From Auanema rhodensis (Eukaryota; Animalia; Nematoda), in the NCBI GenBank assembly GCA_964057225.1, contig OZ059895.1:3348001-3412000 (forward strand): a stretch of 64,000 nucleotides of DNA. The letters run 5' to 3'. Below are positions 48,340-64,000 of the stretch, piece by piece. Position 1 is the stretch's first letter. Each line of letters opens with the position of its first letter. Below the pieces are notes generated by a model. It searched no databases and had not been told where the DNA came from. It worked only from the letters and a program-made list of their open reading frames with translations. Position numbers and translations under genes: made by a program.

Positions 48340-48675
48340 CGTTCCATTCGGATGATCAATACGTAGCAGGCGGGTTAGAGCTAGACGACAAGAGACGAGA
48401 GGAGCTGACACGCCCTTTATATGGAACTCAGACTTTAGTTCTGTCTCATGGAATGACTAAGGATGGCTTGTCATCTCCTCAGAGCTCACCTATAGTTTAT
48501 ATCTCTTTATTTCTTATCGTAACTTATTGTAATCATTATGTAGAATAAACCTTTCTTTTCATGAGTCTTATGTTATCCATTATGCTCTATTAATACCGCT
48601 ACATCTGGAACACTATATCGCACATCTTATAGACTACATTGGTCTATAGGATAGATACGAGAGCATAACGGAACG
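48340..48675 (+). repeat. 5' LTR (336 bp)
   Basis: Direct repeat of 59498-59833 with 5 substitutions. Starts CGTTCC and ends GGAACG (6-bp terminal inverted repeat). TATA-like TTTATAT at 48416-48422 and AATAAA at 48544-48549. Confidence 0.97.
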
Positions 48676-48688
48676 TGGAGGTTCCACC
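48676..48688 (+). promoter_or_regulatory. Primer-binding site, tRNA-Gln
   Basis: TGGAGGTTCCACC directly abuts the 5' LTR and is the reverse complement of the 3' end of eukaryotic tRNA-Gln (...GGUGGAACCU-CCA), 13 nt. Confidence 0.9.
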
Positions 48689-49807: not shown

Positions 49808-50011
49808 ATGCGTGCAAAGAGAAAAGAAAAATGCAAATGCTATACAAATTGGACCCAAAAGACCAAGATAACCAAAGTCCAATTTCAAAGTACGGTAGAA
49901 GGCGGATCTAAAGTTATGGCCAGAACCTTAGATTCATTCCTATCCTTCCGACTTGACCAAACCAGTTGTCAGTCTCAATCTAGCTTTTCCCAACTTACCA
50001 CCAACAACTAA
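49808..50011 (+). other. Short upstream ORF (67 aa) in the same reading frame as the polyprotein
   Basis: ATG at 49808, TAA at 50009-50011. The frame is then open from 50012 to 58771. No recognisable homology. Confidence 0.3.
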
Positions 50012-50101
50012 ACGTACATACCCACCCAATTACGTTCAAATTCCATCATCCCACACGTAATCAGACACTCGAGGTTTTTTCAAACCAAGAGTCCTAACAA
50101 G

Positions 50102-53100
50102 GTGGAGAGAAGGTATAACTCAGCAGTACCTCTCAGTACGCACTCCAACCCGGATCCCCGCGACTCAGCTCCAGTAACCAGAAGCCGAACTCGCGCGCAA
50201 AGTGTCGCCATTATCAACGAAGACACAGCAGAGGAGAAGCCTAACGTGGAAAAATTTTACACGCCCCGTGCAGGTACGTTTTCTCCTTCAGAACGTTCTA
50301 GTGATCCGGACTACATACCATCTGGAGACGACGAGCGACCCTTGGTGATAGACGAACAGACACCGAACACCACTACGAAAGAAAAGGTACGCTCTTCCAA
50401 TATACATAAAAATAAAAATAATAAAAATCTAAATAATTCTGATATCTCTCTCTCTCTCTCAAGTCAAGAACCTACTGGTTCACCTTCAACTACAGGCTTA
50501 CAATCTCTCAAAAACAAAGTCGTTGATTTATTGAATCGCTCACCCAAAGACCCAAACCCAAAATCTAGCCGAGCACAGCGACTTGCTACAATACCCAATA
50601 CATACACGCGCTATACGTTATCTCCAATCACCTCACCGGAGCAAAGAAAACTTTTGAAAAATAACCCACAAACATCAACCCCAATTCTCAATAGTCCAAG
50701 ATTAGACGAATTGACGACACCTAACCAATATAACCAAACAGAGCACATTACTCCTACGTCAGGAAGTTCAAGATCTGCACATACAGTAATAGCTGTTCCG
50801 AAAAAAATGACTGAGCCCGCAACCAATTTACCCGGAGCGGGGAAAACAACAATTGCCCAAGTTTTAACATCACCCTACTGCCCTGTTTATGACGGTAGCC
50901 GCAATTTCCGCGACTTTACCGCTAAATTTAATGTCTTCGCTAATGCACTTGGCCTAGTGATACCTGAAAGGTTGACTCTTCTGCCGTTGCTTCTTAAAAA
51001 TGATGCGGCAGAAGAAGCATACAAACAAACTCCTGAACACCTTAAAACGTCGGGTTCATGGAATGATTTGTTAGCAGCTTTAACATCAAAGCTCTGCCCT
51101 GAATATAATCAGGACCCAGCACTGATCAGCCTTCAAAACACTAGTCAAGGGGATCTTTCGATTGATGCCTTTGCTCAGGCTTTGCGAACAATAAGCCTTA
51201 GTGCTTTTGCCAGTGATGACCCACATAAGGATCACATACTAAGATCAACCTTCCTGAGAGGACTTAAAAATACTCTGAAGGCAGGAGTGATCCGAGCAAG
51301 GCCCAAAACCTTTGCTGAGGCGATTGAGGCTGCTCGCTGGGAAGAATCAATATTGAACCAGACAGCAGACACTCAGGCGATGCTAGTGAATGCAGTTAAC
51401 CAAGCACTAGCTCCCTTTACGCGCAATAAAGAGAGAAGAGATAACAGAACTTTTGACCGAAGTTACCAGCGCGGTAATCAAAATTATCAAAATTATCAAA
51501 ATTATCAAACAAATAAAAACCGTTCAAATTATAACAATTTCCAACAACGTAATAATAATTTTGGAAATAATCGCCGTCCAAATAATTTTGGAAGAAATAA
51601 CGAGCGTCAAAACAGCAATAATGGTACTAATTGGTACCAAAATAATTATAATCCTCGATATAACAATCAAGGAGGAAGAAATGGACAAAGGCGAGTACAA
51701 TTTAAAGAACGAAGAAACCAATCGAGAGGAAGAGATAGGAGCTCTTCAAGAGTTAACTCCATCTCTCTTTCACCACTCTCATTAACTGTTGTAATGGCAT
51801 TAGCAGCAGCAATACTGCTACCTTGTGCGTCAAGCTACCAAGCATGCACAAAAGCAACAGGGGGAGCACTACTCATGCCTCCAACATTAAAGAAATGCAA
51901 ATTAACAGAAGCAAACCACGTGATCCAAACACAAGTCCATCTATACACTCGCAATCACACAGCTCACGAGTGGGACGCGTGGCGCTGCTCGAAGGAAGTG
52001 CACAGGCTGTGTGTACGCGATTTATTATTCCTTCGCGACAGCAACAAAACAATCGATAGGATAGAGCCTATAAGCGTGCAGTCATGCAGGCAGGCAATTC
52101 GCGATCGAAAGTGGAATAATATGGAACTAGAAAGAATCGATAGTATTGCCCAAGCAACCCCTGAACCCTCCTTCGATCCGGCGCGAGCGTTTAGCCGCGA
52201 CGAGTGCGAGGAGCGGTCGCGTTTAGTACTGGAGCGGGGTGTTATGACCCGCATGCCAGACGATACCATCCTTTCAAACTTACTACTAAACACTGAAGGG
52301 TGCAGTGCGCATCATGGTAACTGCAAATCAAAAAATTCAATAATTATTTGGGATCCACAAACTACGGATTCCCGTTGCAATTACATAGATATGCACACAT
52401 ATGAAGCCATCATTAGCGGCGATACTATCCTAATTCCGAGCACACAATCTGCTCTTATCCTTTCGAACAAACCAACCCCAAAACCTATCGCTTCGTGTTT
52501 TAGACAATCAGCATTTCACACAACATCGGGGAACTACATCATACTCCCCAAATTTCCAAATGACAATAACATTACTATCCTCGTAGAAAGAGAGTTTAGA
52601 AAATTGCCGTTTAAAAGACAAAAACGCGCAATCGCTACAGGATGTTCATTCCCTTTAGACCAAGATAGAGTAATGGAAGTTGAAGATTTTGAGACTCATA
52701 CGCTTCACATATGCCCATATGCCTTTTTGAGACCAATTATGAGCAATCCGGGCATTACGCAGATTATCTCTTTAATCAAAGGAAGACGAATGGCAGATCC
52801 CACGTACTCTTTAAAAGAATGGATAACTGCTAATCGCGAGAAATTTGAATTTTTCTTTAAAATCCAAATTTATGATAAATCCTTAAGACATTTTCTTAAA
52901 CAATACGATTTTCGCGATAAAGATGAAGCAATCCTACAATATGTTGCACAAAGAGAACTGGCGTTAGCAACAAAGACAGGAATATCTTATCTAACACCCA
53001 AACAATTACTTCAACAAATATCTGATCGGTTAACTGTTATTGAATTCGATCGCATTCTTCATACCAAAGAAGGCACTTATCGGGAAAGAACTGAAAGTAT

Positions 53101-56100
53101 TGCGCTTGATTTAGCTAATACCCCAGTCATAATCGAAGAAAACCTCACTGTTCCATCTAGACAAGAAGTGTTACAATCTTTTGTGAAATTACCACCGATA
53201 CGACAAAAGATACTAACAAATGAAGAAGCACAAAAGAGCGAATTCATACAAGAAACAATTAATCTTGTAACCGAACTTAAAACTCTCATAAAAATTAGGA
53301 AAAACAAAACAGCAGCAGACATTGATGAGATGAAATTTATTAATCTTCCTGCATCACGAATGTTTGTACAAAATACTGATAAACTGTTCTACGATATCAA
53401 AAATAATTTTGGAATACCAATCGGTCCACACCCTAAGCTCATCAAGCCTAGTAAAATCTCTAAAGATTTATTATTGAAAATTTTCTTGCCACTACTTGCT
53501 GAAAAGAAATTGCCTTATACTTCAAGTAGAATATCACCAGAACACCTAAGGAGACTAATGGCAGAGAAACTCGAGCTTGAATCGCTGCAAACCACGACGC
53601 GTACGCCGAGCGTCGCTGCAGGCGGCGCGGCAGCAACATCAGCCCAACCCATAATCGATCGGAAGACGACCATCGAATCAGATCCCGCAATGCAGCCGCA
53701 TGCAATAACAAGCCCTCAAGCAACCGCAGCGACTACCGCGCGCGCGCCATCGTCGACAGCCGAGCCGAAAATAACAGAGAGCTACACAACCGCAACAACT
53801 ACCGCACGCGCGACAATATCGACTAGCCAGGCGCCAACATCAACAAAGCTCTACGCCACTTATAAAGATCAACAAATTCCAATAATGGACGAAATAACAT
53901 ACTTACCCACGACATTGATTCGAAAACAGAGAGCTTCATCAACACCAACAGCAAAAGAAATACAGTCTGTTCAGGCTCAAGCTCATTACATAGCTTCGAA
54001 AATTGACTCGGAAGAACAGTATCGCCAAAACATTACGAGCAAGATTGCACAAGATCATTTGCAATACGCCACAACAATGATTCAAAGCGAGCTACAGAAA
54101 CATTTCAAAGAGTCATACGAATCAATATGTGAGATCCAAAATAGATATCTAGAGCTATGGCGATCAATTTTACAAATCGAACCAACAATCGCTATGCGTA
54201 CTATCCTTGGAAGAGAAGACATAGCAGCTCGTTTTGTTGGAAGTGAGATATTACACGTACATGTTTGCCCAACAGTTTTCACAAAAACTATTTATCACAA
54301 TCACACGGTAAACAATACATGTTATCTCGAAACGCCAATTTTAACCGAAGAAGGCCAATTACTATTCGCAGCACCAGGATCAAAAGATCTTCTACCCCAC
54401 GGAAAAGAAATCAATTGTGATCACGTACCAACAGACGTATGGTCAGCAGACGGTGAATGGAAAGGAATCAATGGCACTGTAGATGTCAGTCTCATATCCA
54501 TGGGAGATGGACTGCATCACGAAAAGATCACACCATTAAAATTCACTGGAGCACACCTTTACACTAATTTAACATCACGTGTATACTCCATGACCACAGC
54601 CATTGCTTATGGTGCTAGTTTAGCGTCAATCCGTCAAAATCATGTACTTCATACAATTCACAATGATCCTAAAATATCAGCCGCCTATAGTGTTTTAAAG
54701 AAGAGTAGTGACTACATATCTAAAGCACACGAATTCACAAAAAACACTTGGAATTCATTCATTGATACGATGGTAGGGACAATCGAACGAACACTAATTA
54801 CAATTGGTGCAATCACATCTGTTATAATAATTGTGATCATACTAGCATTTATCATCAAGGTCTACTTCCTCAAATCAATTCCGATACCAGTCATGCACAT
54901 TGAACTGAAGGATCGAAATAGTAACCCACCTACATACGAAGAAACCTTAGAGCTAGTTACTCAACCTGATCAACCCATTCCAAGAAACATAATGAAGCAA
55001 TACTACCCATCAATACTGACGTATATACCAATTGCAATACCATTGGTTTGTTCAATTTCAAAAAGGAAAGATCAATCTTTACCACTATTATGGATGACTG
55101 TTAATGACAGATTAGTCCTCACCTTATGGGATTCAGGATCATCTATCAGTTATATCAGAGTATCAACACTACATTACTTGACTTTAAACGACTTTGTAAA
55201 GAACAATAAATCAAGTGCTACAACAGCAAACGGATCAGAATTTCGATTCATCGGTACAATAGATCTAACCGTCGAAATTGCCGGATATGAAATCGATCAT
55301 ACATTCTATATATCCAACGATGAAGACTGCCCTTCACCAGCATTAATTGGATTAGATTTCATGAAGACACTTGACAGTCAAAACATTGGCATGAAACTTA
55401 GACCATACAAAAGGACACTAGAAATTGGAAACCGCGTAGTACGGTTAGCTAATGGAATTGACGGAAGACTCAGCAAAACATCAACAACTGTCAATCTGAT
55501 TAACTTAAAACAGCGAGATATGCTTCCAAACGAAACTTGTACACTACAAGTTCAATTAGAAAAACCCATCAGAGACGATTCTTTCGCGATGCTCTCGATA
55601 GATAATAACAAAATGCTAACACCCAAATACCATACAGCATTTCGCGATGTTAATTCCATTGATATCACGTTCAAAAACAACTCCAACAAATTTATTGAAT
55701 TACCATCAGGACACGTAATTACTAAAGCTGAGATAGGAATCATGCCTGACTATGAAATCTTCACAACTGATCAAAAACAAGACTATATTCCACCTGAAGC
55801 TGATTGGGAAAGTAAATTACCTACTTTTCCAACTGATTTTATGAAAGAACTTGATCTAAAAGATGCCGATCTTACACAAAATCTTAAAGATCATTTACGT
55901 TCTATAATTCGCAGACGAAAAAAGGCTTTCCTCAATGAAGACAAAAATATAGGACTGTTCAAAGGCCCTGTAGAACACAGCATACCATTAAGAACTGACA
56001 TGGATATGCCTAAACCTAGGATCACTCGTATACCCTTAGGAAAACAAGAGGAAATTGAAAGACAAGTACAGGAAATGCTTCAACAAGGAATAATCGAACC

Positions 56101-58771
56101 ATCAACATCACTGTTCAATAGTCCTGTTGTATTAGTGAAGAAAAAGGACGATACATTTCGTTTTGTAACTGATTTCCGCGCCTTAAACAACGTTACACGG
56201 AAGCAAACATATGTAATTCCTAATATCTCCGACATTATTGATATGGCAGCTGGATCAAAATATTTTTCCAATTTTGATTTAGTTTCTGGATTTTTCCAAA
56301 TACCATTAAAGAAATCAGACCGATCCTTAACAGCCTTCACAACAAATACGGGAACGTATCAATACAGAAGGATGCCTATGGGATTATGTGGCGCTCCACA
56401 TACCTTCCAAACTGCGGTACGATATCTTCAAAGCAGATGCAAATGCAGACTATTCGTTTACTTAGACGATCTACTTGTTATATCAGATAATGCAGAACAA
56501 CACATATATGATATTGAAGAAGTACTCGAAAGAATTGAAGAACTAGGATTGAAGATAAAGCTCAAGAAATGCTCATTTGCTAGACCAGAAGTCAAATTTC
56601 TTGGGTTAATTGTTGGAAGAGATGGAGTTAAGCCTGATCCAAAGAAAGTTTCCGCCATCCAAGACTATCCTGCTCCACAGTCACCTACGGGAGTTAGAGC
56701 ATTTTTGGGAATGGTAGGATTCTTTCGGAAATTCATTAAAGACTTTGCTCACATCGCAAGCCCTCTATATGATCTCACAAAACTGGACACAGATTTCAAA
56801 TGGTCAGACCAGTGCCAACAAGCGCTAGAAAAATTAAAGAAAAGATTAATAGAAGCACCAGTACTGAAACCACCAAGAGCAGATCGTACTTTCATAATTG
56901 AAAGCGATGGCAGCAATATAGCCATCGGAGCAGTACTGTTACAACCTGAAGATCCGAATGAACCTTTGAAAAACTTACATCCTATTGCTTTTGCAAGTAG
57001 AAAATTAGTTAAAGCCGAACGAAACTATCCTCCTATTGAGATCGAAGCCCTAGGATTAGTATACGCGCTTGCTCAGTTTCGGACTTATATACTTGGATCA
57101 CACGCAATATGCATTACGGATCACCGACCATTAACAAGCTTAATGACACGAAGAGATTTGTTTGGAAGACTAGCAAAATTTCAATTAGTAATACAGGAAT
57201 ACAACATTGAGATCAGATATCGTGAAGGTAGACTAAACAAAGTCTGTGACGCTCTTTCACGATACATTGGAGACGAAGCTAATGATCCAAAGCCAGAAAA
57301 GAAAAAGAAAGTTAAAGAGCCTCAACTTGCTCAGGTTAACTTTGTTAACATACCAGACATTAAACAAATACAAGGCAATACACCTTGGATCAAAAAGACA
57401 ATTGCCGAAATTGAATACAGAACAAAGAAAAACATGCTCTCCAATGATCGTTATTGTGTAATTGATAACATGCTGTACACAAAACCGAGCACGAAAAGAC
57501 CACACCCAGCCTTAGTTTTACCACGAGAGAGCGAACTGATCAGCAAGATCATCGAAGAATTTCATGAAGACCCAGCAATCGGGGCACATCAAGGAATTAA
57601 TAAAACTAAAGAAGCCATATTACGAAGATTCTTCTGGACAAATATGCAAACGGACATAGCAATTTTTGTGAAACAATGCGTTAAATGCGCACAAAGGAAG
57701 AAAGACCCTCATGCTATGACCGTTCAGCCAATGGGTCAATTCGAAATACCATCTAAACCATTTGAGAGAATACATATGGATATCATGGGACCCTTCCCAA
57801 CATCAAAAAGAAACAACAACTACGTTCTTACAATCCAGGACTCTTTTTCCAAATGGGCGACAACTATTGCTATACCTACAATAGTTACGGACGTTGTCAT
57901 CGACAGATTCCTCAGAAATTTTGTATACATTTATGGACCTCCAAATCGACTAATAACAGATCGAGGTTCCAATTTTGTATCAAAGAAATTCGAAAATATG
58001 TGTGATAAACTCGGCATAAAACATGAACCAACACTCCCGCATCAGAAGAACTCTAACGGACAAGTGGAAAGACTACATAGGACGTTAGAAGAAGGATTAA
58101 CACATTATTTGAACGAAGAAATTACTGATTGGGACTTATTTTTGCCAAAAGTCACCTTTGCGTTAAACACCACAACACACTCAACAACAGGAATATCACC
58201 ATATATAGCTTTATTCGGAAAAGAAAGTCGTATGAGACTCGATAAAGAATTATCACCTGAAACACCGGAATCAGGAACAATATCCATTGATATAGAAAAC
58301 ATGGAACAACTTCGTCAAGAAAGAAAATCTCTCATTCAAGATAACTTGGAAAAACATCAGCAACAAGCAAAGAAGAAACACGATTCAAGACAACGAATTG
58401 AAGAAAGGGACATCCGTGAAGGAGACCAAGTTATGTTGACCATTAAGTCACATAAAATAGGTCAAAAGCTGAGGAAATGTTATGATGGACCCTTTGAGGT
58501 CATCAAAGTAAAAGGATCAATGGTACAAATCAAGAATCCTTTTGGAAAACTCCAAGATATACACAAAGACAACTTGAAACTTTTCAATCGAAGTTCAACA
58601 TGTGGAGCAGCACACAACACTCGCTCCAAAGCTAGAAACAGCGACTCAGATGACGACAGTGACATCGAAATTATCGAAGTTATACACGGAGACAATAACG
58701 AAGAATTAGACACCGAAATTGACTCAGAAGACCCATCAGATCATAATTGGATACCATCAAGAAGAAGATAA
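50102..58771 (+). CDS. Gag-Env-Pol polyprotein (single ORF, 2889 codons from GTG; first in-frame ATG at 50807)
   Basis: No stops or frameshifts over 8.67 kb; domain motifs are listed in the sub-features. The true start is uncertain (GTG 50102, ATG 50807 in an AAAAAAATG context, or spliced). Confidence 0.95.
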   Translation: MERRYNSAVPLSTHSNPDPRDSAPVTRSRTRAQSVAIINEDTAEEKPNVEKFYTPRAGTFSPSERSSDPDYIPSGDDERPLVIDEQTPNTTTKEKVRSSNIHKNKNNKNLNNSDISLSLSSQEPTGSPSTTGLQSLKNKVVDLLNRSPKDPNPKSSRAQRLATIPNTYTRYTLSPITSPEQRKLLKNNPQTSTPILNSPRLDELTTPNQYNQTEHITPTSGSSRSAHTVIAVPKKMTEPATNLPGAGKTTIAQVLTSPYCPVYDGSRNFRDFTAKFNVFANALGLVIPERLTLLPLLLKNDAAEEAYKQTPEHLKTSGSWNDLLAALTSKLCPEYNQDPALISLQNTSQGDLSIDAFAQALRTISLSAFASDDPHKDHILRSTFLRGLKNTLKAGVIRARPKTFAEAIEAARWEESILNQTADTQAMLVNAVNQALAPFTRNKERRDNRTFDRSYQRGNQNYQNYQNYQTNKNRSNYNNFQQRNNNFGNNRRPNNFGRNNERQNSNNGTNWYQNNYNPRYNNQGGRNGQRRVQFKERRNQSRGRDRSSSRVNSISLSPLSLTVVMALAAAILLPCASSYQACTKATGGALLMPPTLKKCKLTEANHVIQTQVHLYTRNHTAHEWDAWRCSKEVHRLCVRDLLFLRDSNKTIDRIEPISVQSCRQAIRDRKWNNMELERIDSIAQATPEPSFDPARAFSRDECEERSRLVLERGVMTRMPDDTILSNLLLNTEGCSAHHGNCKSKNSIIIWDPQTTDSRCNYIDMHTYEAIISGDTILIPSTQSALILSNKPTPKPIASCFRQSAFHTTSGNYIILPKFPNDNNITILVEREFRKLPFKRQKRAIATGCSFPLDQDRVMEVEDFETHTLHICPYAFLRPIMSNPGITQIISLIKGRRMADPTYSLKEWITANREKFEFFFKIQIYDKSLRHFLKQYDFRDKDEAILQYVAQRELALATKTGISYLTPKQLLQQISDRLTVIEFDRILHTKEGTYRERTESIALDLANTPVIIEENLTVPSRQEVLQSFVKLPPIRQKILTNEEAQKSEFIQETINLVTELKTLIKIRKNKTAADIDEMKFINLPASRMFVQNTDKLFYDIKNNFGIPIGPHPKLIKPSKISKDLLLKIFLPLLAEKKLPYTSSRISPEHLRRLMAEKLELESLQTTTRTPSVAAGGAAATSAQPIIDRKTTIESDPAMQPHAITSPQATAATTARAPSSTAEPKITESYTTATTTARATISTSQAPTSTKLYATYKDQQIPIMDEITYLPTTLIRKQRASSTPTAKEIQSVQAQAHYIASKIDSEEQYRQNITSKIAQDHLQYATTMIQSELQKHFKESYESICEIQNRYLELWRSILQIEPTIAMRTILGREDIAARFVGSEILHVHVCPTVFTKTIYHNHTVNNTCYLETPILTEEGQLLFAAPGSKDLLPHGKEINCDHVPTDVWSADGEWKGINGTVDVSLISMGDGLHHEKITPLKFTGAHLYTNLTSRVYSMTTAIAYGASLASIRQNHVLHTIHNDPKISAAYSVLKKSSDYISKAHEFTKNTWNSFIDTMVGTIERTLITIGAITSVIIIVIILAFIIKVYFLKSIPIPVMHIELKDRNSNPPTYEETLELVTQPDQPIPRNIMKQYYPSILTYIPIAIPLVCSISKRKDQSLPLLWMTVNDRLVLTLWDSGSSISYIRVSTLHYLTLNDFVKNNKSSATTANGSEFRFIGTIDLTVEIAGYEIDHTFYISNDEDCPSPALIGLDFMKTLDSQNIGMKLRPYKRTLEIGNRVVRLANGIDGRLSKTSTTVNLINLKQRDMLPNETCTLQVQLEKPIRDDSFAMLSIDNNKMLTPKYHTAFRDVNSIDITFKNNSNKFIELPSGHVITKAEIGIMPDYEIFTTDQKQDYIPPEADWESKLPTFPTDFMKELDLKDADLTQNLKDHLRSIIRRRKKAFLNEDKNIGLFKGPVEHSIPLRTDMDMPKPRITRIPLGKQEEIERQVQEMLQQGIIEPSTSLFNSPVVLVKKKDDTFRFVTDFRALNNVTRKQTYVIPNISDIIDMAAGSKYFSNFDLVSGFFQIPLKKSDRSLTAFTTNTGTYQYRRMPMGLCGAPHTFQTAVRYLQSRCKCRLFVYLDDLLVISDNAEQHIYDIEEVLERIEELGLKIKLKKCSFARPEVKFLGLIVGRDGVKPDPKKVSAIQDYPAPQSPTGVRAFLGMVGFFRKFIKDFAHIASPLYDLTKLDTDFKWSDQCQQALEKLKKRLIEAPVLKPPRADRTFIIESDGSNIAIGAVLLQPEDPNEPLKNLHPIAFASRKLVKAERNYPPIEIEALGLVYALAQFRTYILGSHAICITDHRPLTSLMTRRDLFGRLAKFQLVIQEYNIEIRYREGRLNKVCDALSRYIGDEANDPKPEKKKKVKEPQLAQVNFVNIPDIKQIQGNTPWIKKTIAEIEYRTKKNMLSNDRYCVIDNMLYTKPSTKRPHPALVLPRESELISKIIEEFHEDPAIGAHQGINKTKEAILRRFFWTNMQTDIAIFVKQCVKCAQRKKDPHAMTVQPMGQFEIPSKPFERIHMDIMGPFPTSKRNNNYVLTIQDSFSKWATTIAIPTIVTDVVIDRFLRNFVYIYGPPNRLITDRGSNFVSKKFENMCDKLGIKHEPTLPHQKNSNGQVERLHRTLEEGLTHYLNEEITDWDLFLPKVTFALNTTTHSTTGISPYIALFGKESRMRLDKELSPETPESGTISIDIENMEQLRQERKSLIQDNLEKHQQQAKKKHDSRQRIEERDIREGDQVMLTIKSHKIGQKLRKCYDGPFEVIKVKGSMVQIKNPFGKLQDIHKDNLKLFNRSSTCGAAHNTRSKARNSDSDDDSDIEIIEVIHGDNNEELDTEIDSEDPSDHNWIPSRRR
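50807..51751 (+). other. gag: Gag region: capsid-like domain followed by an N/Q/R-rich low-complexity nucleocapsid-position segment
   Basis: PVYDGSRNFRDFTAKF start and FLRGLKNTLKAGVIRARPKTFAEAIEAARWEE end are typical of Ty3/gypsy capsid. No CCHC knuckle; QNY x3 repeat at 51479-51505. Confidence 0.85.
51752..55045 (+). other. env: Envelope glycoprotein region, herpesvirus gB / class III fusogen-like
   Basis: Hydrophobic signal-like LSLTVVMALAAAILLPCASS (~51776-51835); Cys-rich ectodomain with about 10 N-x-T sequons; furin RQKR (52616-52627); S/T/A/P-rich stretch (53582-53850); gB-like CEIQNRYLELWRSILQIEPTIAMRTILGREDIAARFVGSEILHVHVC (54128-54268) followed by CYLETP; TM helix (54791-54871). Confidence 0.85.
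55058..55450 (+). other. Retropepsin-type aspartic protease domain
   Basis: LWDSGSSISYI (catalytic D at 55130), TANGS flap-like motif, ALIGLDFM. Boundaries approximate. Confidence 0.9.
55950..56850 (+). other. Reverse transcriptase domain
   Basis: IIEPSTSLFNSPVVLVKKKD, FVTDFRALN, FDLVSGFFQI, TAF, RMPMGL, YLDD (56459-56470), FLG. Boundaries approximate. Confidence 0.97.
56885..57265 (+). other. RNase H domain
   Basis: ESDGSNIAIGAVLLQ, PIAFASRKL..AERNY, EIEAL, TDHRPL, CDALSR. Confidence 0.95.
57540..58590 (+). other. Integrase (HHCC zinc-binding, DDE core, GPF/GPY module)
   Basis: FHEDPAIGAHQG...CVKC; IHMDIMGP, ITDRGSNF, NGQVERLHRTL; YDGPFEV. No chromodomain visible. Confidence 0.95.
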
Positions 58772-59497: not shown

Positions 59498-59833
59498 CGT
59501 TCCATTCGGATGATCAATACGTAGCAGGCGGGTTAGAGCTAGACGACAAGAGACGAGAGGAGCTGACACGCCCTTTATATGGAACTCAGACTTTAGTTCT
59601 GTCTCATGGAATGACTAAGGATGGCTTGTCATCTCCTCAGAGCTCACCTATAGTTTATATCTCTTTAATTTTTATCGTAACTTATTGTAATCATTATGTA
59701 GAATAAACCTTTCTTTTCATGAGTCTTATGTTATCCATTATGCTCTATTAATACCGCTACATCTGGAACACTGTATCGCACATCTTATAGACTACATTGG
59801 TCTAAAGGATAGATGCGAGAGCATAACGGAACG
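59498..59833 (+). repeat. 3' LTR (336 bp)
   Basis: CGTTCC...GGAACG; 331/336 identical to the 5' LTR; AATAAA at 59702-59707. Confidence 0.97.
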
Positions 59834-62800
59834 AGCCTACGTAGGAAAACATCCGTTCAAGCAACAGAACTTGGGAAGATCCATGTCTGATTAGACGGTC
59901 AGTTTATTATTTAAGGGTAACCTGTGCTGCGTATAATTTATGGGTGTACAAAAATCAAAGTTTATTACTATCTTTACAAAATAGATACAAAAAAATTGGA
60001 ATGTGATCACATGTTCTGATGTTTTGAAGGGCATGTTTTACTAGCCTACGTAGGAAAACATCCATTCAAGCAACAGAACTAGGAAAGATCCATGTCTGAT
60101 TAGTCGGTCAGTTCATTATTTAAGGGTAACCTGTGCTGCGTATAATTTATGGGTGTACAAAAATCAAAGTTCTTAATCAAAGTTTAAAAAACAAACTGAA
60201 TAAAAGTTAGAAAATCTGAATTAAAATCTTTCCAACATAGTGTTCAACATATGATATATTACTATCTTTACAAAATAGATACAAAAAAATTGGAATGTGA
60301 TCACATGTTCTGATGCTTTGAAGGGCATGTTTTACTAGCCTACGTAGGAAAACATCCGTTCAAGCAACAGAACTTGGGAAGATCCATGTCTGATTAGACG
60401 GTCAGTTCATTATTTAAGGGTAACCTGTGCTGCGTATAATTTATGGGTGTACAAAAATCAAAGTTTATTACTATCTTTACAAAATAGATACAAAAAAATT
60501 GGAATGTGATCACATGTTCTGATGTTTTGAAGGGCATGTTTTACTAGCCTACGTAGGAAAACATCCATTCAAGCAACAGAACTTGGGAAGATCCATGTCT
60601 GATTAGACGGTCAGTTCATTATTTAAGGGTAACCTGTGCTGCGTATATTTTATGGGTGTACAAACAACAAGGTTCTTAATCAAAGTTTAGAAAACAAACT
60701 GAGTGAAAGTTGAAAAAATCTGAATTAAAATCTTTCCAACATAGTGTTCAACATATGATATATTACTATCTTTACAAGATAGATACAAAAAAATTGGAAT
60801 GTGATCACATGTTCTGATGCTTTGAAGGGCATGTTTTACTAGCCTACGTAGGAAAACATCCGTTCAAGCAACAGAACTTGGGAAGATCCATGTCTGATTA
60901 GACGGTCAGTTCATTATCTAAGGGTAACCTGTGCTGCGTATAATTTATGGGTGTACAAAAATCAAAGTTTATTACTATCTTTACAAAATAGATACAAAAA
61001 AATTGGAATGTGATCACATGTTCTGATGTTTTGAAGGGCATGTTTTACTAGCCTACGTAGGAAAACATCCATTCAAGCAACAGAACTAGGAAAGATCCAT
61101 GTCTGATTAGTCGGTCAGTTCATTATTTAAGGGTAACCTGTGCTGCGTATAATTTATGGGTGTACAAAAATCAAAGTTCTTAATCAAAGTTTAAAAAACA
61201 AACTGAATAAAAGTTAGAAAATCTGAATTAAAATCTTTCCAACATAGTGTTCAACATATGATATATTACTATCTTTACAAGATAGATACAAAAAAATTGG
61301 AATGTGATCACATGTTCTGATGCTTTGAAGGGCATGTTTTACTAGCCTACGTAGGAAAACATCCATTCAAGCAACAGAACTAGGAAAGATCCATGTCTGA
61401 TTAGTCGGTCAGTTCATTATTTAAGGGTAACCTGTGCTGCGTATAATTTATGGGTGTACAAAAATCAAAGTTTATTACTATCTTTACAAGATAGATACAA
61501 AAAAATTGGAATGTGATCACATGTTCTGATGCTTTGAAGGGCATGTTTTACTAGCCTACGTAGGAAAACATCCATTCAAGCAACAGAACTAGGAAAGATC
61601 CATGTCTGATTAGACGGTCAGTTCATTATTTAAGGGTAACCTGTGCTGCGTATATTTTATGGGTGTACAAACAACAAGGTTCTTAATCAAAGTTTAGAAA
61701 ACAAACTGAGTGAAAGTTGAAAAAATCTGAATTAAAATCTTTCCAACATAGTGTTCAACATATGATATATTACTATCTTTACAAAATAGATACAAAAAAA
61801 TTGGAATGTGATCACATGTTCTGATGCTTTGAAGGGCATGTTTTACTAGCCTACGTAGGAAAACATCCGTTCAAGCAACAGAACTTGGGAAGATCCATGT
61901 CTGATTAGACGGTCAGTTCATTATTTAAGGGTAACCTGTGCTGCGTATAATTTATGGGTGTACAAAAATCAAAGTTTATTACTATCTTTACAAAATAGAT
62001 ACAAAAAAATTGGAATGTGATCACATGTTCTGATGTTTTGAAGGGCATGTTTTACTAGCCTACGTAGGAAAACATCCATTCAAGCAACAGAACTTGGGAA
62101 GATCCATGTCTGATTAGACGGTCAGTTCATTATTTAAGGGTAACCTGTGCTGCGTATATTTTATGGGTGTACAAAAATCAAAGTTCTTAATCAAAGTTTA
62201 GAAAACAAACTGAGTGAAAGTTGAAAAAATCTGAATTAAAATCTTTCCAACATAGTGTTCAACATATGATATATTACTATCTTTACAAGATAGATACAAA
62301 AAAATTGGAATGTGATCACATGTTCTGATGCTTTGAAGGGCATGTTTTACTAGCCTACGTAGGAAAACATCCGTTCAAGCAACAGAACTTGGGAAGATCC
62401 ATGTCTGATTAGACGGTCAGTTCATTATCTAAGGGTAACCTGTGCTGCGTATAATTTATGGGTGTACAAAAATCAAAGTTTATTACTATCTTTACAAAAT
62501 AGATACAAAAAAATTGGAATGTGATCACATGTTCTGATGTTTTGAAGGGCATGTTTTACTAGCCTACGTAGGAAAACATCCATTCAAGCAACAGAACTAG
62601 GAAAGATCCATGTCTGATTAGTCGGTCAGTTCATTATTTAAGGGTAACCTGTGCTGCGTATAATTTATGGGTGTACAAAAATCAAAGTTCTTAATCAAAG
62701 TTTAAAAAACAAACTGAATAAAAGTTAGAAAATCTGAATTAAAATCTTTCCAACATAGTGTTCAACATATGATATATTACTATCTTTACAAGATAGATAC

Positions 62801-64000
62801 AAAAAAATTGGAATGTGATCACATGTTCTGATGCTTTGAAGGGCATGTTTTACTAGCCTACGTAGGAAAACATCCATTCAAGCAACAGAACTAGGAAAGA
62901 TCCATGTCTGATTAGTCGGTCAGTTCATTATTTAAGGGTAACCTGTGCTGCGTATAATTTATGGGTGTACAAAAATCAAAGTTTATTACTATCTTTACAA
63001 GATAGATACAAAAAAATTGGAATGTGATCACATGTTCTGATGCTTTGAAGGGCATGTTTTACTAGCCTACGTAGGAAAACATCCATTCAAGCAACAGAAC
63101 TAGGAAAGATCCATGTCTGATTAGACGGTCAGTTCATTATTTAAGGGTAACCTGTGCTGCGTATATTTTATGGGTGTACAAACAACAAGGTTCTTAATCA
63201 AAGTTTAGAAAACAAACTGAGTGAAAGTTGAAAAAATCTGAATTAAAATCTTTCCAACATAGTGTTCAACATATGATATATTACTATCTTTACAAGATAG
63301 ATACAAAAAAATTGGAATGTGATCACATGTTCTGATGCTTTGAAGGGCATGTTTTACTAGCCTACGTAGGAAAACATCCATTCAAGCAACAGAACTAGGA
63401 AAGATCCATGTCTGATTAGACGGTCAGTTCATTATTTAAGGGTAACCTGTGCTGCGTATATTTTATGGGTGTACAAACAACAAGGTTCTTAATCAAAGTT
63501 TAGAAAACAAACTGAGTGAAAGTTGAAAAAATCTGAATTAAAATCTTTCCAACATAGTGTTCAACATATGATATATTACTATCTTTACAAGATAGATACA
63601 AAAAAATTGGAATGTGATCACATGTTCTGATGCTTTGAAGGGCATGTTTTACTAGCCTACGTAGGAAAACATCCATTCAAGCAACAGAACTTGGGAAGAT
63701 CCATGTCTGATTAGACGGTCAGTTCATTATTTAAGGGTAACCTGTGCTGCGTATATTTTATGGGTGTACAAACAACAAGGTTCTTAATCAAAGTTTAGAA
63801 AACAAACTGAGTGAAAGTTGAAAAAATCTGAATTAAAATCTTTCCAACATAGTGTTCAACATATGATATATTACTATCTTTACAAGATAGATACAAAAAA
63901 ATTGGAATGTGATCACATGTTCTGATGCTTTGAAGGGCATGTTTTACTAGCCTACGTAGGAAAACATCCGTTCAAGCAACAGAACTTGGGAAGATCCATG
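59834..64000 (-). repeat. Same satellite family in inverted orientation (continues beyond the window)
   Basis: AGCCTACGTAGGAAAACATCCGTTCAAGCAACAGAACTTGGGAAGATCC is the reverse complement of the left-array monomer. Unit starts at 59834, 60043, 60337, 60546, 60841 and onward. Confidence 0.99.

What the first reader, a model, noticed from the sequence alone, without database searches (positions are those of the whole stretch)
50102..58771. LTR retroelement with env embedded in frame between gag and pol: a single Gag-Env-PR-RT-RH-IN polyprotein
Seen: one stop-free ORF in which ~1100 aa with a signal-like hydrophobic segment, Cys-rich glycosylatable ectodomain, furin site and TM helix separate the capsid from the DSG protease. 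Established: retroviruses, insect errantiviruses and env-bearing BEL/Pao elements place env 3' of integrase, usually as a separate or spliced ORF. Inference: this is a distinct architecture of potentially infectious, enveloped gypsy-type virus. All catalytic motifs are intact and the LTRs are ~98.5% identical, so the family is probably recently active. I know of no described example of this order, but could not check the literature.
Basis: partly seen in the sequence, partly recalled or inferred. Interest (0 to 1): 0.95.

Follow-up and report, generated by a model that had tools for sequence, protein, structure and literature searches.

The report
Roundworm retrovirus with built-in envelope
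This is an intact virus-like jumping gene, likely of a roundworm, whose single long reading frame places a herpesvirus-type membrane-fusion protein between the capsid and the enzymes; that layout is already published, and the only possibly new part is an extra, predicted helical domain of unassigned kind inside the fusion protein.

Summary
One 2,919-codon frame (50012-58771) runs Gag, internal signal, glycoprotein-B-type (class III) Env, transmembrane helix, PR, RT, RNase H, IN, between 336-nt LTRs (98.5% alike) with a tRNA-Gln primer site. In-frame env between gag and pol was reported in 2019 for planarian Burro (PMC6431247), and GAG-ENV-POL order for nematode gypsy elements with gB-type env (PMC13524379, citing Sacco 2022). 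26 of 151 homologs carry gag-env-PR in one chain; the closest named are from Auanema and Caenorhabditis. This scan also found the layout before on other DNA. The LTR age argument is weak: no target-site duplication, and the flanking satellite flips orientation, so the two LTRs may come from different insertions. What remains of interest: a 435-residue insert behind the furin site, with a conserved (48% to an Auanema relative), predicted all-helical core and a mucin-like stalk; relatives fill the same loop with other, unrelated inserts. Predicted processing: signal peptidase, host convertase and the element's own protease. Verdict: new member of a known kind.

The parts
48340..48675 (+). 5' LTR, 336 nt, with 6-nt inverted ends that are CG...CG rather than TG...CA
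   Evidence: (local alignment of the two repeats)
48676..48687 (+). Primer-binding site, tRNA-Gln type
   Evidence: reverse complement equals the 12-nt Gln PBS listed for Clat_errantivirus_4 and Ctro_errantivirus_1 in PMC13524379 Supplementary file 1
50012..50806 (+). 265 stop-free codons without Met ahead of Gag (S/T/P-rich, likely disordered); how or whether translated is open
   Evidence: 0 of 20,000 shuffles stop-free, other frames 11 and 17 stops; no Pfam family
50807..51757 (+). Gag: capsid (aa 266-460) and an N/Q/R-rich region without zinc knuckle (aa 461-582)
   Evidence: weak Pfam; profile from homologs aa 296-447
51758..51835 (+). Internal signal sequence (predicted), aa 583-608
   Evidence: hydropathy; like segment in 40 of 45 gag-env chains, this one included
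51836..52627 (+). Env N-part (fusion and PH-like domains of a class III fusogen, predicted), ending in furin motif RQKR (aa 869-872)
   Evidence: model blocks pLDDT 83-98, Foldseek to herpesvirus gB
52628..53932 (+). 435-aa insert in the furin loop: conserved helical core (aa 873-1065), variable helices (to 1190), S/T-rich mucin-like stalk (1191-1300), second RxxR (RKQR, 1304-1307)
53933..54781 (+). Env C-part: long central helix, crown domain and stem of gB type
   Evidence: Pfam PF24664 and PF00606; model residues 710-890 pLDDT 82-98
54791..54871 (+). Transmembrane helix (stop-transfer, predicted)
   Evidence: KD 2.97; TM in 50 of 53 env-PR chains, this one included
54872..55054 (+). Cytoplasmic tail with PPTY (aa 1639-1642), a PPxY late-domain-like motif
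   Evidence: PPxY in only 3 of 53 tails
55055..55411 (+). Aspartyl protease (DSG at aa 1707)
56009..56671 (+). Reverse transcriptase (YLDD at aa 2150)
56795..57208 (+). RNase H
57341..58771 (+). Integrase: HHCC, D,D(35)E core, GPF motif, acidic tail; stop at 58769-58771
59498..59833 (+). 3' LTR, 336 nt, AATAAA at 59702

Best explanation
This is a Ty3/gypsy element, likely of a rhabditid nematode, whose single frame encodes Gag, a glycoprotein-B-type fusogen and Pol in that order, and which is predicted to be made as one membrane-threaded polyprotein that is then cut into capsid, envelope and enzymes. Shown: order, motifs, gB-like model, family-wide signal and TM segments. Inferred from established signal/stop-transfer biology: Gag stays in the cytosol, the internal signal (aa 583-608) threads Env into the ER, signal peptidase frees Env's N-terminus, the TM helix stops transfer, and tail-PR-RT-RH-IN stay cytosolic. 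Inferred from sequence: the element's protease cuts at V-N/C-x-I/V/L sites found at the CA/NC, NC/signal, tail/PR, PR/linker and RH/IN junctions, freeing Gag from its anchor and Pol from Env; a furin-type convertase cuts RQKR. The 435-aa insert likely forms a helical cap on a mucin stalk outside the trimer (attachment or shield). Particles would bud at a secretory membrane, carrying Env, and pass between cells; untested.
For: Frame and domains. Env: profile hits KSHV ORF8/gB E 8.7e-15; model matches HSV gB E 1.2e-10, prob 1.0, 115 PDB chains at E<=0.001. Family-wide: 26 of 151 homologs have gag<env<PR in one chain, 14 of 151 complete to IN, 13 of 151 have IN before env (the 151 are P0001 plus the best 150 of 283 hits). 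Signal-like segment 40 of 45, TM 50 of 53. [VI]N[AS][IVL] before the signal in 8 of 44, after CA 8 of 44, before PR 11 of 52, after RH 4 of 18 (60-aa window) relatives against 2.1% expected per 40 aa. P0001 (Auanema sp. JU1783) has the same chain incl. insert at 45-50%. Contigs of DNA runs X1, X3, X7 (three studies) each bridge env-TM-PR without gaps, and an X3 contig bridges gag-signal-env start. PBS matches nematode errantivirus Gln PBS. Published class.
Against: No protein or particle data. The cleavage motif was picked after seeing this protein, relatives are not independent, and most relatives lack it at each junction. A strict 1:1:1 Gag:Env:Pol output is unusual, so splicing or other control may apply, as in Cer1. 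TM-scores to gB are low (0.15/0.22, rmsd 26) because the monomer model has about 340 residues under pLDDT 50 and loose domain packing. Database chains are gene predictions and some may be spliced models. Signal and TM calls rest on hydropathy only. Host is inferred from relatives. The X3 contig that bridges gag-env belongs to a deleted derivative.
Confidence: 0.85

Rival explanations
1. The genome order is gag-env-pol, but the working messages are spliced, so that Gag, Gag-Pol and Env are made separately and the full polyprotein is minor (Cer1-like control).
For: Cer1 makes CERV from a spliced five-exon mRNA partly in the polyprotein frame (PMC10309623 passages). The 265 Met-less codons are open beyond chance and need an unusual start. 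Equimolar Gag:Pol is unusual (own knowledge).
Against: No TTTCAG-type acceptor in the element. The joints seen in DNA contigs are not GT..AG. The internal signal directly fused to Gag is kept in 40 of 45 chains.
Confidence: 0.25
2. The insert is cut at both ends (RQKR 872 and RKQR 1307) and released as a soluble protein rather than staying as a cap on the spike.
For: Both motifs are at the same places in P0001 (RTKR, RTLR); two further relatives have a dibasic pair there; the core is as conserved as the protease (48% vs 50%) and models as its own domain (pTM 0.68).
Against: A second RxxR occurs in only 8 of 30 long-spacer relatives against 15.5% background; P0004 lacks it; RxxR is only the minimal motif.
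Confidence: 0.3
3. This particular copy is a recombinant of two insertions (or a local inversion or mis-join in the satellite), so its LTR identity measures family divergence, not the age of one insertion.
For: Flanks TCAGT and AGCCT are not a duplication; satellite hits are all + left of the element (178 hits, 27-48070) and all - right of it (17 hits, 59831-63946) (inverted arms).
Against: No second LTR piece in the window; the partner junction would lie outside it and no genome was held. An aberrant integration could give the same picture.
Confidence: 0.6
4. One-off chimera or assembly artefact that joined an env to a gag-pol element.
For: The copy sits in a satellite array at an orientation switch; no laid contig spans the whole element.
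Against: Junctions bridged by contigs of three studies; same chain in P0001 and 26 of 151 homologs; base composition similar across gag, env and pol.
Confidence: 0.01

Closest known systems
Nematode GAG-ENV-POL errantiviruses with HSV/gB-type ENV (Chary and Hayashi, PMC13524379; read: abstract, section 5 part 1 of 2, section 6 part 1 of 2, sections 14 and 22, passages, Nematoda rows of Supplementary file 1, passages of file 6; figures not visible)
   Same: Gypsy Pol order, gB-type env between gag and pol, signal plus TM around the ectodomain, tRNA-Gln PBS as in 8 of 36 nematode rows, low copy number typical.
   Different: No Auanema row in their element table. The main text has no occurrence of 'polyprotein', 'in-frame' or 'mucin'; a large furin-loop insert is not mentioned in the parts read, though Figure 5-supplement 1 could show it.
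Nematode endogenous retroviruses of Sacco et al. 2022, J Gen Virol 103:1739 (seen only as citation in PMC13524379; paper not held)
   Same: Cited as nematode ERVs with ENV and POL flipped. Recalled, not from a call: described as one continuous gag-env-pro-pol ORF.
   Different: Could not be compared; whether they describe furin-loop inserts is unknown.
Burro/GYPSM1 of Schmidtea mediterranea (Arkhipova and Yushenova 2019, PMC6431247; passages of section 7 read)
   Same: Env in frame between gag and pol in one polyprotein, env similar to mononegavirus fusion glycoproteins.
   Different: Burro is over 30 kb with a 4,873-aa ORF, CCHC knuckles and many cargo domains; this element is 11.5 kb, 2,919 codons, without CCHC.
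Herpesvirus gB / mononegavirus class III fusogens
   Same: Profile and model matches.
   Different: About 10% identity in the structural matches; carries a 435-aa insert at the furin loop; embedded in a polyprotein.
Atlas virus and other nematode BEL/Pao elements (PMC9094657, search listing only)
   Same: Nematode endogenous element with an envelope gene.
   Different: Phlebovirus-like Gn/Gc envelope per the listing; env after integrase (recalled); here gB-type and before the protease.

Membership tests
GAG-ENV-POL gB-type errantivirus (PMC13524379) | Full-length RT and integrase in a continuous ORF, gypsy order PR-RT-RH-IN | tested here: met
GAG-ENV-POL gB-type errantivirus (PMC13524379) | POL classed Ty3/gypsy by GyDB profiles | not testable with these tools
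   No GyDB held. RT groups (100/99) with P0010 and P0017, Caenorhabditis env-pol elements, in a 21-row tree without named reference elements
GAG-ENV-POL gB-type errantivirus (PMC13524379) | GAG domain upstream | tested here: met
   Retrotrans_gag E 0.0012 and Ty3_capsid E 0.014, both under cut-off; homolog profile aa 296-447; relatives pass the Pfam gag cut-off
GAG-ENV-POL gB-type errantivirus (PMC13524379) | ENV of HSV/gB type | tested here: met
GAG-ENV-POL gB-type errantivirus (PMC13524379) | ENV between GAG and POL | tested here: met
GAG-ENV-POL gB-type errantivirus (PMC13524379) | Ectodomain flanked by signal peptide and TM | tested here: met
   hydropathy only; DeepTMHMM not available
GAG-ENV-POL gB-type errantivirus (PMC13524379) | LTRs and tRNA primer-binding site | tested here: met
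   LTR identity 98.5% is just under the paper's 99% search filter
GAG-ENV-POL gB-type errantivirus (PMC13524379) | Nematode cysteine-bridge configuration (C1a, C1d, C2a or C2c) | not tested
   Defined in a figure supplement that cannot be read
GAG-ENV-POL gB-type errantivirus (PMC13524379) | Host in Nematoda, Bryozoa or Platyhelminthes | tested here: inconclusive
   Closest named relatives are Auanema and Caenorhabditis; host itself not given
GAG-ENV-POL gB-type errantivirus (PMC13524379) | Several near-identical intact copies (typical, not required) | not testable with these tools
   No genome held; contig depth is no copy number
Ordinary LTR-element insertion | Target-site duplication | tested here: not met
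Canonical gag-pol-env errantivirus or BEL/Pao with env | env 3' of integrase | tested here: not met
   The frame ends 240 aa after the integrase core with an acidic tail; no ORF of 100 aa or more follows before the LTR
Burro giant elements | Over 30 kb, about 4,900-aa ORF with cargo domains and CCHC knuckles | tested here: not met
   11,494 nt, 2,919 codons, no CCHC
Any known protein family, for the insert core | Sequence or fold match | tested here: inconclusive
   See Tried and rejected

The most novel reading that the evidence does not exclude
The furin loop of GAG-ENV-POL envelopes is a swappable cargo slot: different lineages load it with unrelated folded domains on mucin stalks, and this lineage carries a helical domain of a not yet described kind, cut out at two convertase sites and shed into the worm's extracellular space or displayed as the receptor-binding cap of the particle.
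Probability: 0.25. Interest if true: 0.55.

Novelty: new member of a known kind. Interest (0 to 1): 0.25.

Why it matters
The layout itself adds one more member to a published class. It matters modestly because it yields a concrete, testable processing map for how one frame can make a cytosolic capsid, a luminal fusogen and cytosolic enzymes, a point not treated in the parts of the papers I read. If the insert is an attachment or shed domain, it would give a handle on how these elements pick target cells, since herpesvirus gB needs partner proteins for that (own knowledge) and these elements encode none.

Tried and rejected
Insert identity: no Pfam family at E<=10; no PDB sequence hit to the insert part, the listed hits being mostly to the gB part of the aligned relatives; Foldseek 0 matches at E<=0.001 in PDB and BFVD; VIA-align against 48,161 chains gave none at Z>=5, best Z 4.0, rmsd 15.5 over 111 residues; ESM Atlas gave only weak unnamed or DUF clusters with recognition below the bar and no usable hit for P0060. 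These blanks show neither absence nor a new fold. Word-index homolog searches returned 1 protein each, far fewer than the exhaustive search. Expression: no RNA holder listed; run X12 is only guessed RNA and held a deleted derivative; neither is evidence. Spliced-RNA origin of the deleted derivatives: rejected, joints are not GT..AG and stand in DNA runs. Double cleavage as a family trait: rejected (8 of 30 vs 15.5%). PPxY as a family trait: rejected (3 of 53). No clear homolog of the Met-less N-terminal stretch among 10 long N-termini. Copy number, dN/dS and the partner junction could not be examined: no genome held; a second read-laying on further runs gave no result, so the junction support rests on the three DNA runs. 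Papers: Sacco 2022 not held; searches for a described furin-loop insert, Auanema elements and 'gag-env-pro-pol' listed nothing relevant; most subscription papers are not searched. In one search one pol-env protein (P0049) was mis-sorted into the gag-env-pol class; one search counts are not affected.

Full report
1. Observation. A single frame runs 50012-58771 on the + strand, 2,919 codons from stop to stop. Pfam places a weak gag at aa 331-419, a viral fusion glycoprotein (PF24664, E 1.4e-13; PF00606 gB) at 1347-1621, then protease, RT, RNase H and integrase. Hydrophobic segments lie at 583-612 and 1588-1628, RQKR at 869, DSG at 1707. All catalytic motifs are present, with D,D(35)E spacing. 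The LTRs are 48340-48675 and 59498-59833, 336 nt with 5 differences, and the 12 bases behind the 5' LTR match the tRNA-Gln primer site listed for two Caenorhabditis errantiviruses. Its start (50102) is a GTG; the first ATG is codon 266.

2. The middle is a class III fusogen. A profile of 110 aligned sequences finds herpesvirus gB chains first (KSHV ORF8, E 8.7e-15). The AlphaFold2 model of aa 606-1590 is confident over the first 260 residues and over the central helix and crown (blocks 82-98) and poor over parts of the insert and stem (mean pLDDT 67.8, pTM 0.51). Foldseek returns gB in all listed rows (best E 1.2e-10, 115 chains at E<=0.001), with low TM-scores owing to loose domain packing.

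3. It is family-wide. The exhaustive search gave 283 proteins at E<=0.001, of which the best 150 were returned. With P0001, 26 of 151 have gag<env<PR in one chain, 14 of 151 run on to integrase, and 13 of 151 have integrase before env. A signal-like segment precedes env in 40 of 45 gag-env chains and a TM helix precedes the protease in 50 of 53 (this protein included). The nearest chain, P0001 from Auanema sp. JU1783, is 45-50% identical over the gag tail, env, protease and start of RT; the nearest full RT is 60% identical, from Caenorhabditis japonica. The host is therefore likely a rhabditid nematode (inference). Contigs from DNA runs of three studies bridge the env-protease junction without gaps, and one bridges gag-signal-env, so the order is no assembly artefact. 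Caveat: database chains are predictions.

4. It is published. [quoted passage not shown] PMC13524379 (eLife 2026, preprint 2023) states that errantiviruses of Nematoda, Bryozoa and Platyhelminthes carry only gB-type ENV arranged GAG-ENV-POL, and cites Sacco et al. 2022 for nematodes; its table has 36 nematode rows, 8 with a Gln primer site, none from Auanema. Sacco 2022 could not be read; I recall it describing one continuous gag-env-pro-pol ORF. Earlier notes of this scan report the same layout in other genomes; they gave me the Burro paper and the late-domain lead, both checked here.

5. How it likely works. Inferred from standard signal and stop-transfer biology: Gag cytosolic, internal signal at 583-608, Env luminal, TM at 1594-1620, tail and Pol cytosolic. 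Gag would remain tethered unless cut on the cytosolic side. A motif [VI][NC]x[IVL] occurs 7 times in the protein, 5 of them at domain junctions (459, 581, 1679, 1827, 2442), one in the insert and one in the PR-RT linker; the stricter form is enriched at the same junctions in relatives (8 of 44, 8 of 44, 11 of 52, 4 of 18; 2.1% expected per 40 aa). I read these as sites of the element's own protease; the motif was chosen after seeing this protein and relatives are not independent, so this is a lead at about even odds. The tail has PPTY, shared with P0001 but present in only 3 of 53 tails. How Gag is made in excess is open: splicing as in Cer1 or Gag-only deleted copies are candidates.

6. The insert. 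Between two anchor cysteines the spacer is 101-150 aa in 12 pol-env elements and 105-596 aa in the 51 sorted as gag-env-pol (one mis-sorted); here it is 583, second longest of 93. Its first 190 aa are 48% identical to P0001, against 57% and 63% for the env core, 50% for the protease and 17% for the S/T-rich stalk, so it is under constraint. Strong homologs of the insert are six proteins, all named Auanema sp. JU1783; two weak hits are a C. japonica and an unnamed protein. It models as a mostly helical domain (pLDDT 69.8, pTM 0.68, 7 sequences) and remains unassigned. The 30 long spacers fall into 16 BLAST groups, so the loop is filled differently by different lineages. A second RxxR before the central helix is shared with P0001, but is not a family trait (8 of 30 vs 15.5% background).

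7. Age. There is no target-site duplication, and the satellite reverses across the element. The simplest reading is recombination between two insertions, so 98.5% is not a safe date for this copy. The intact 8.7-kb frame and contigs with few differences across env and pol still point to a young family.

8. Verdict. Real, well formed, and a new member of a described class. Residual interest lies in the furin-loop insert and the processing map. Interest 0.25; novel case probability 0.25, interest 0.55 if true. Figure supplements of PMC13524379 and the unread Sacco paper may bear on the insert's novelty.

Noticed in passing
window 1-48339 and 59834-64000: The rest of the window is a satellite of mixed 294-295 and 209-210 nt units; it reverses orientation exactly across the element, with no target-site duplication.
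   Followed up: partly
window joints 50386>52615, 52688>58574 and 51922>58334: Two internally deleted derivatives stand in DNA runs of three studies, on contigs of higher depth than the env/pol contigs (X1 70-79 vs 25-28; X3 76-79 vs 12-15; X7 15-27 vs 9-16; depth is no copy number). The 51922>58334 form keeps Gag and the signal and joins in frame to the integrase tail: a possible Gag-only helper. The other keeps a 74-nt island over the furin site.
   Followed up: partly
window 48340-48345 and 59828-59833: Both LTRs begin and end with CG within a 6-nt inverted repeat, not the usual TG...CA (usual ends recalled).
   Followed up: no
window 49808-50011: An ATG-initiated 67-codon ORF in the same frame ends at the stop directly before the long frame; the leader from the LTR to the first Gag ATG is 2.1 kb with 18 upstream ATGs.
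   Followed up: partly
window 50278 and 50444: Other copies show a 1-nt and a 2-nt insertion in the Met-less stretch, and 6- and 18-nt deletions; if on one molecule the frame would be kept, a hint that the stretch is translated. Linkage not shown.
   Followed up: no
homologs P0013, P0014, P0022, P0025, P0144: Several relatives carry two or three protease domains or a long protease region in tandem after env.
   Followed up: no
homologs P0026, P0035, P0042, P0043, P0079, P0114, P0013, P0014; P0005, P0007, P0010; P0022, P0039, P0052: Three other conserved insert families occupy the same furin loop; none got a Pfam family there among those scanned.
   Followed up: partly
window 55412-55981: 190-aa linker between protease and RT, 36% identical to P0001, no Pfam family; resembles degenerate dUTPase-like linkers of gypsy elements (recalled, untested).
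   Followed up: no
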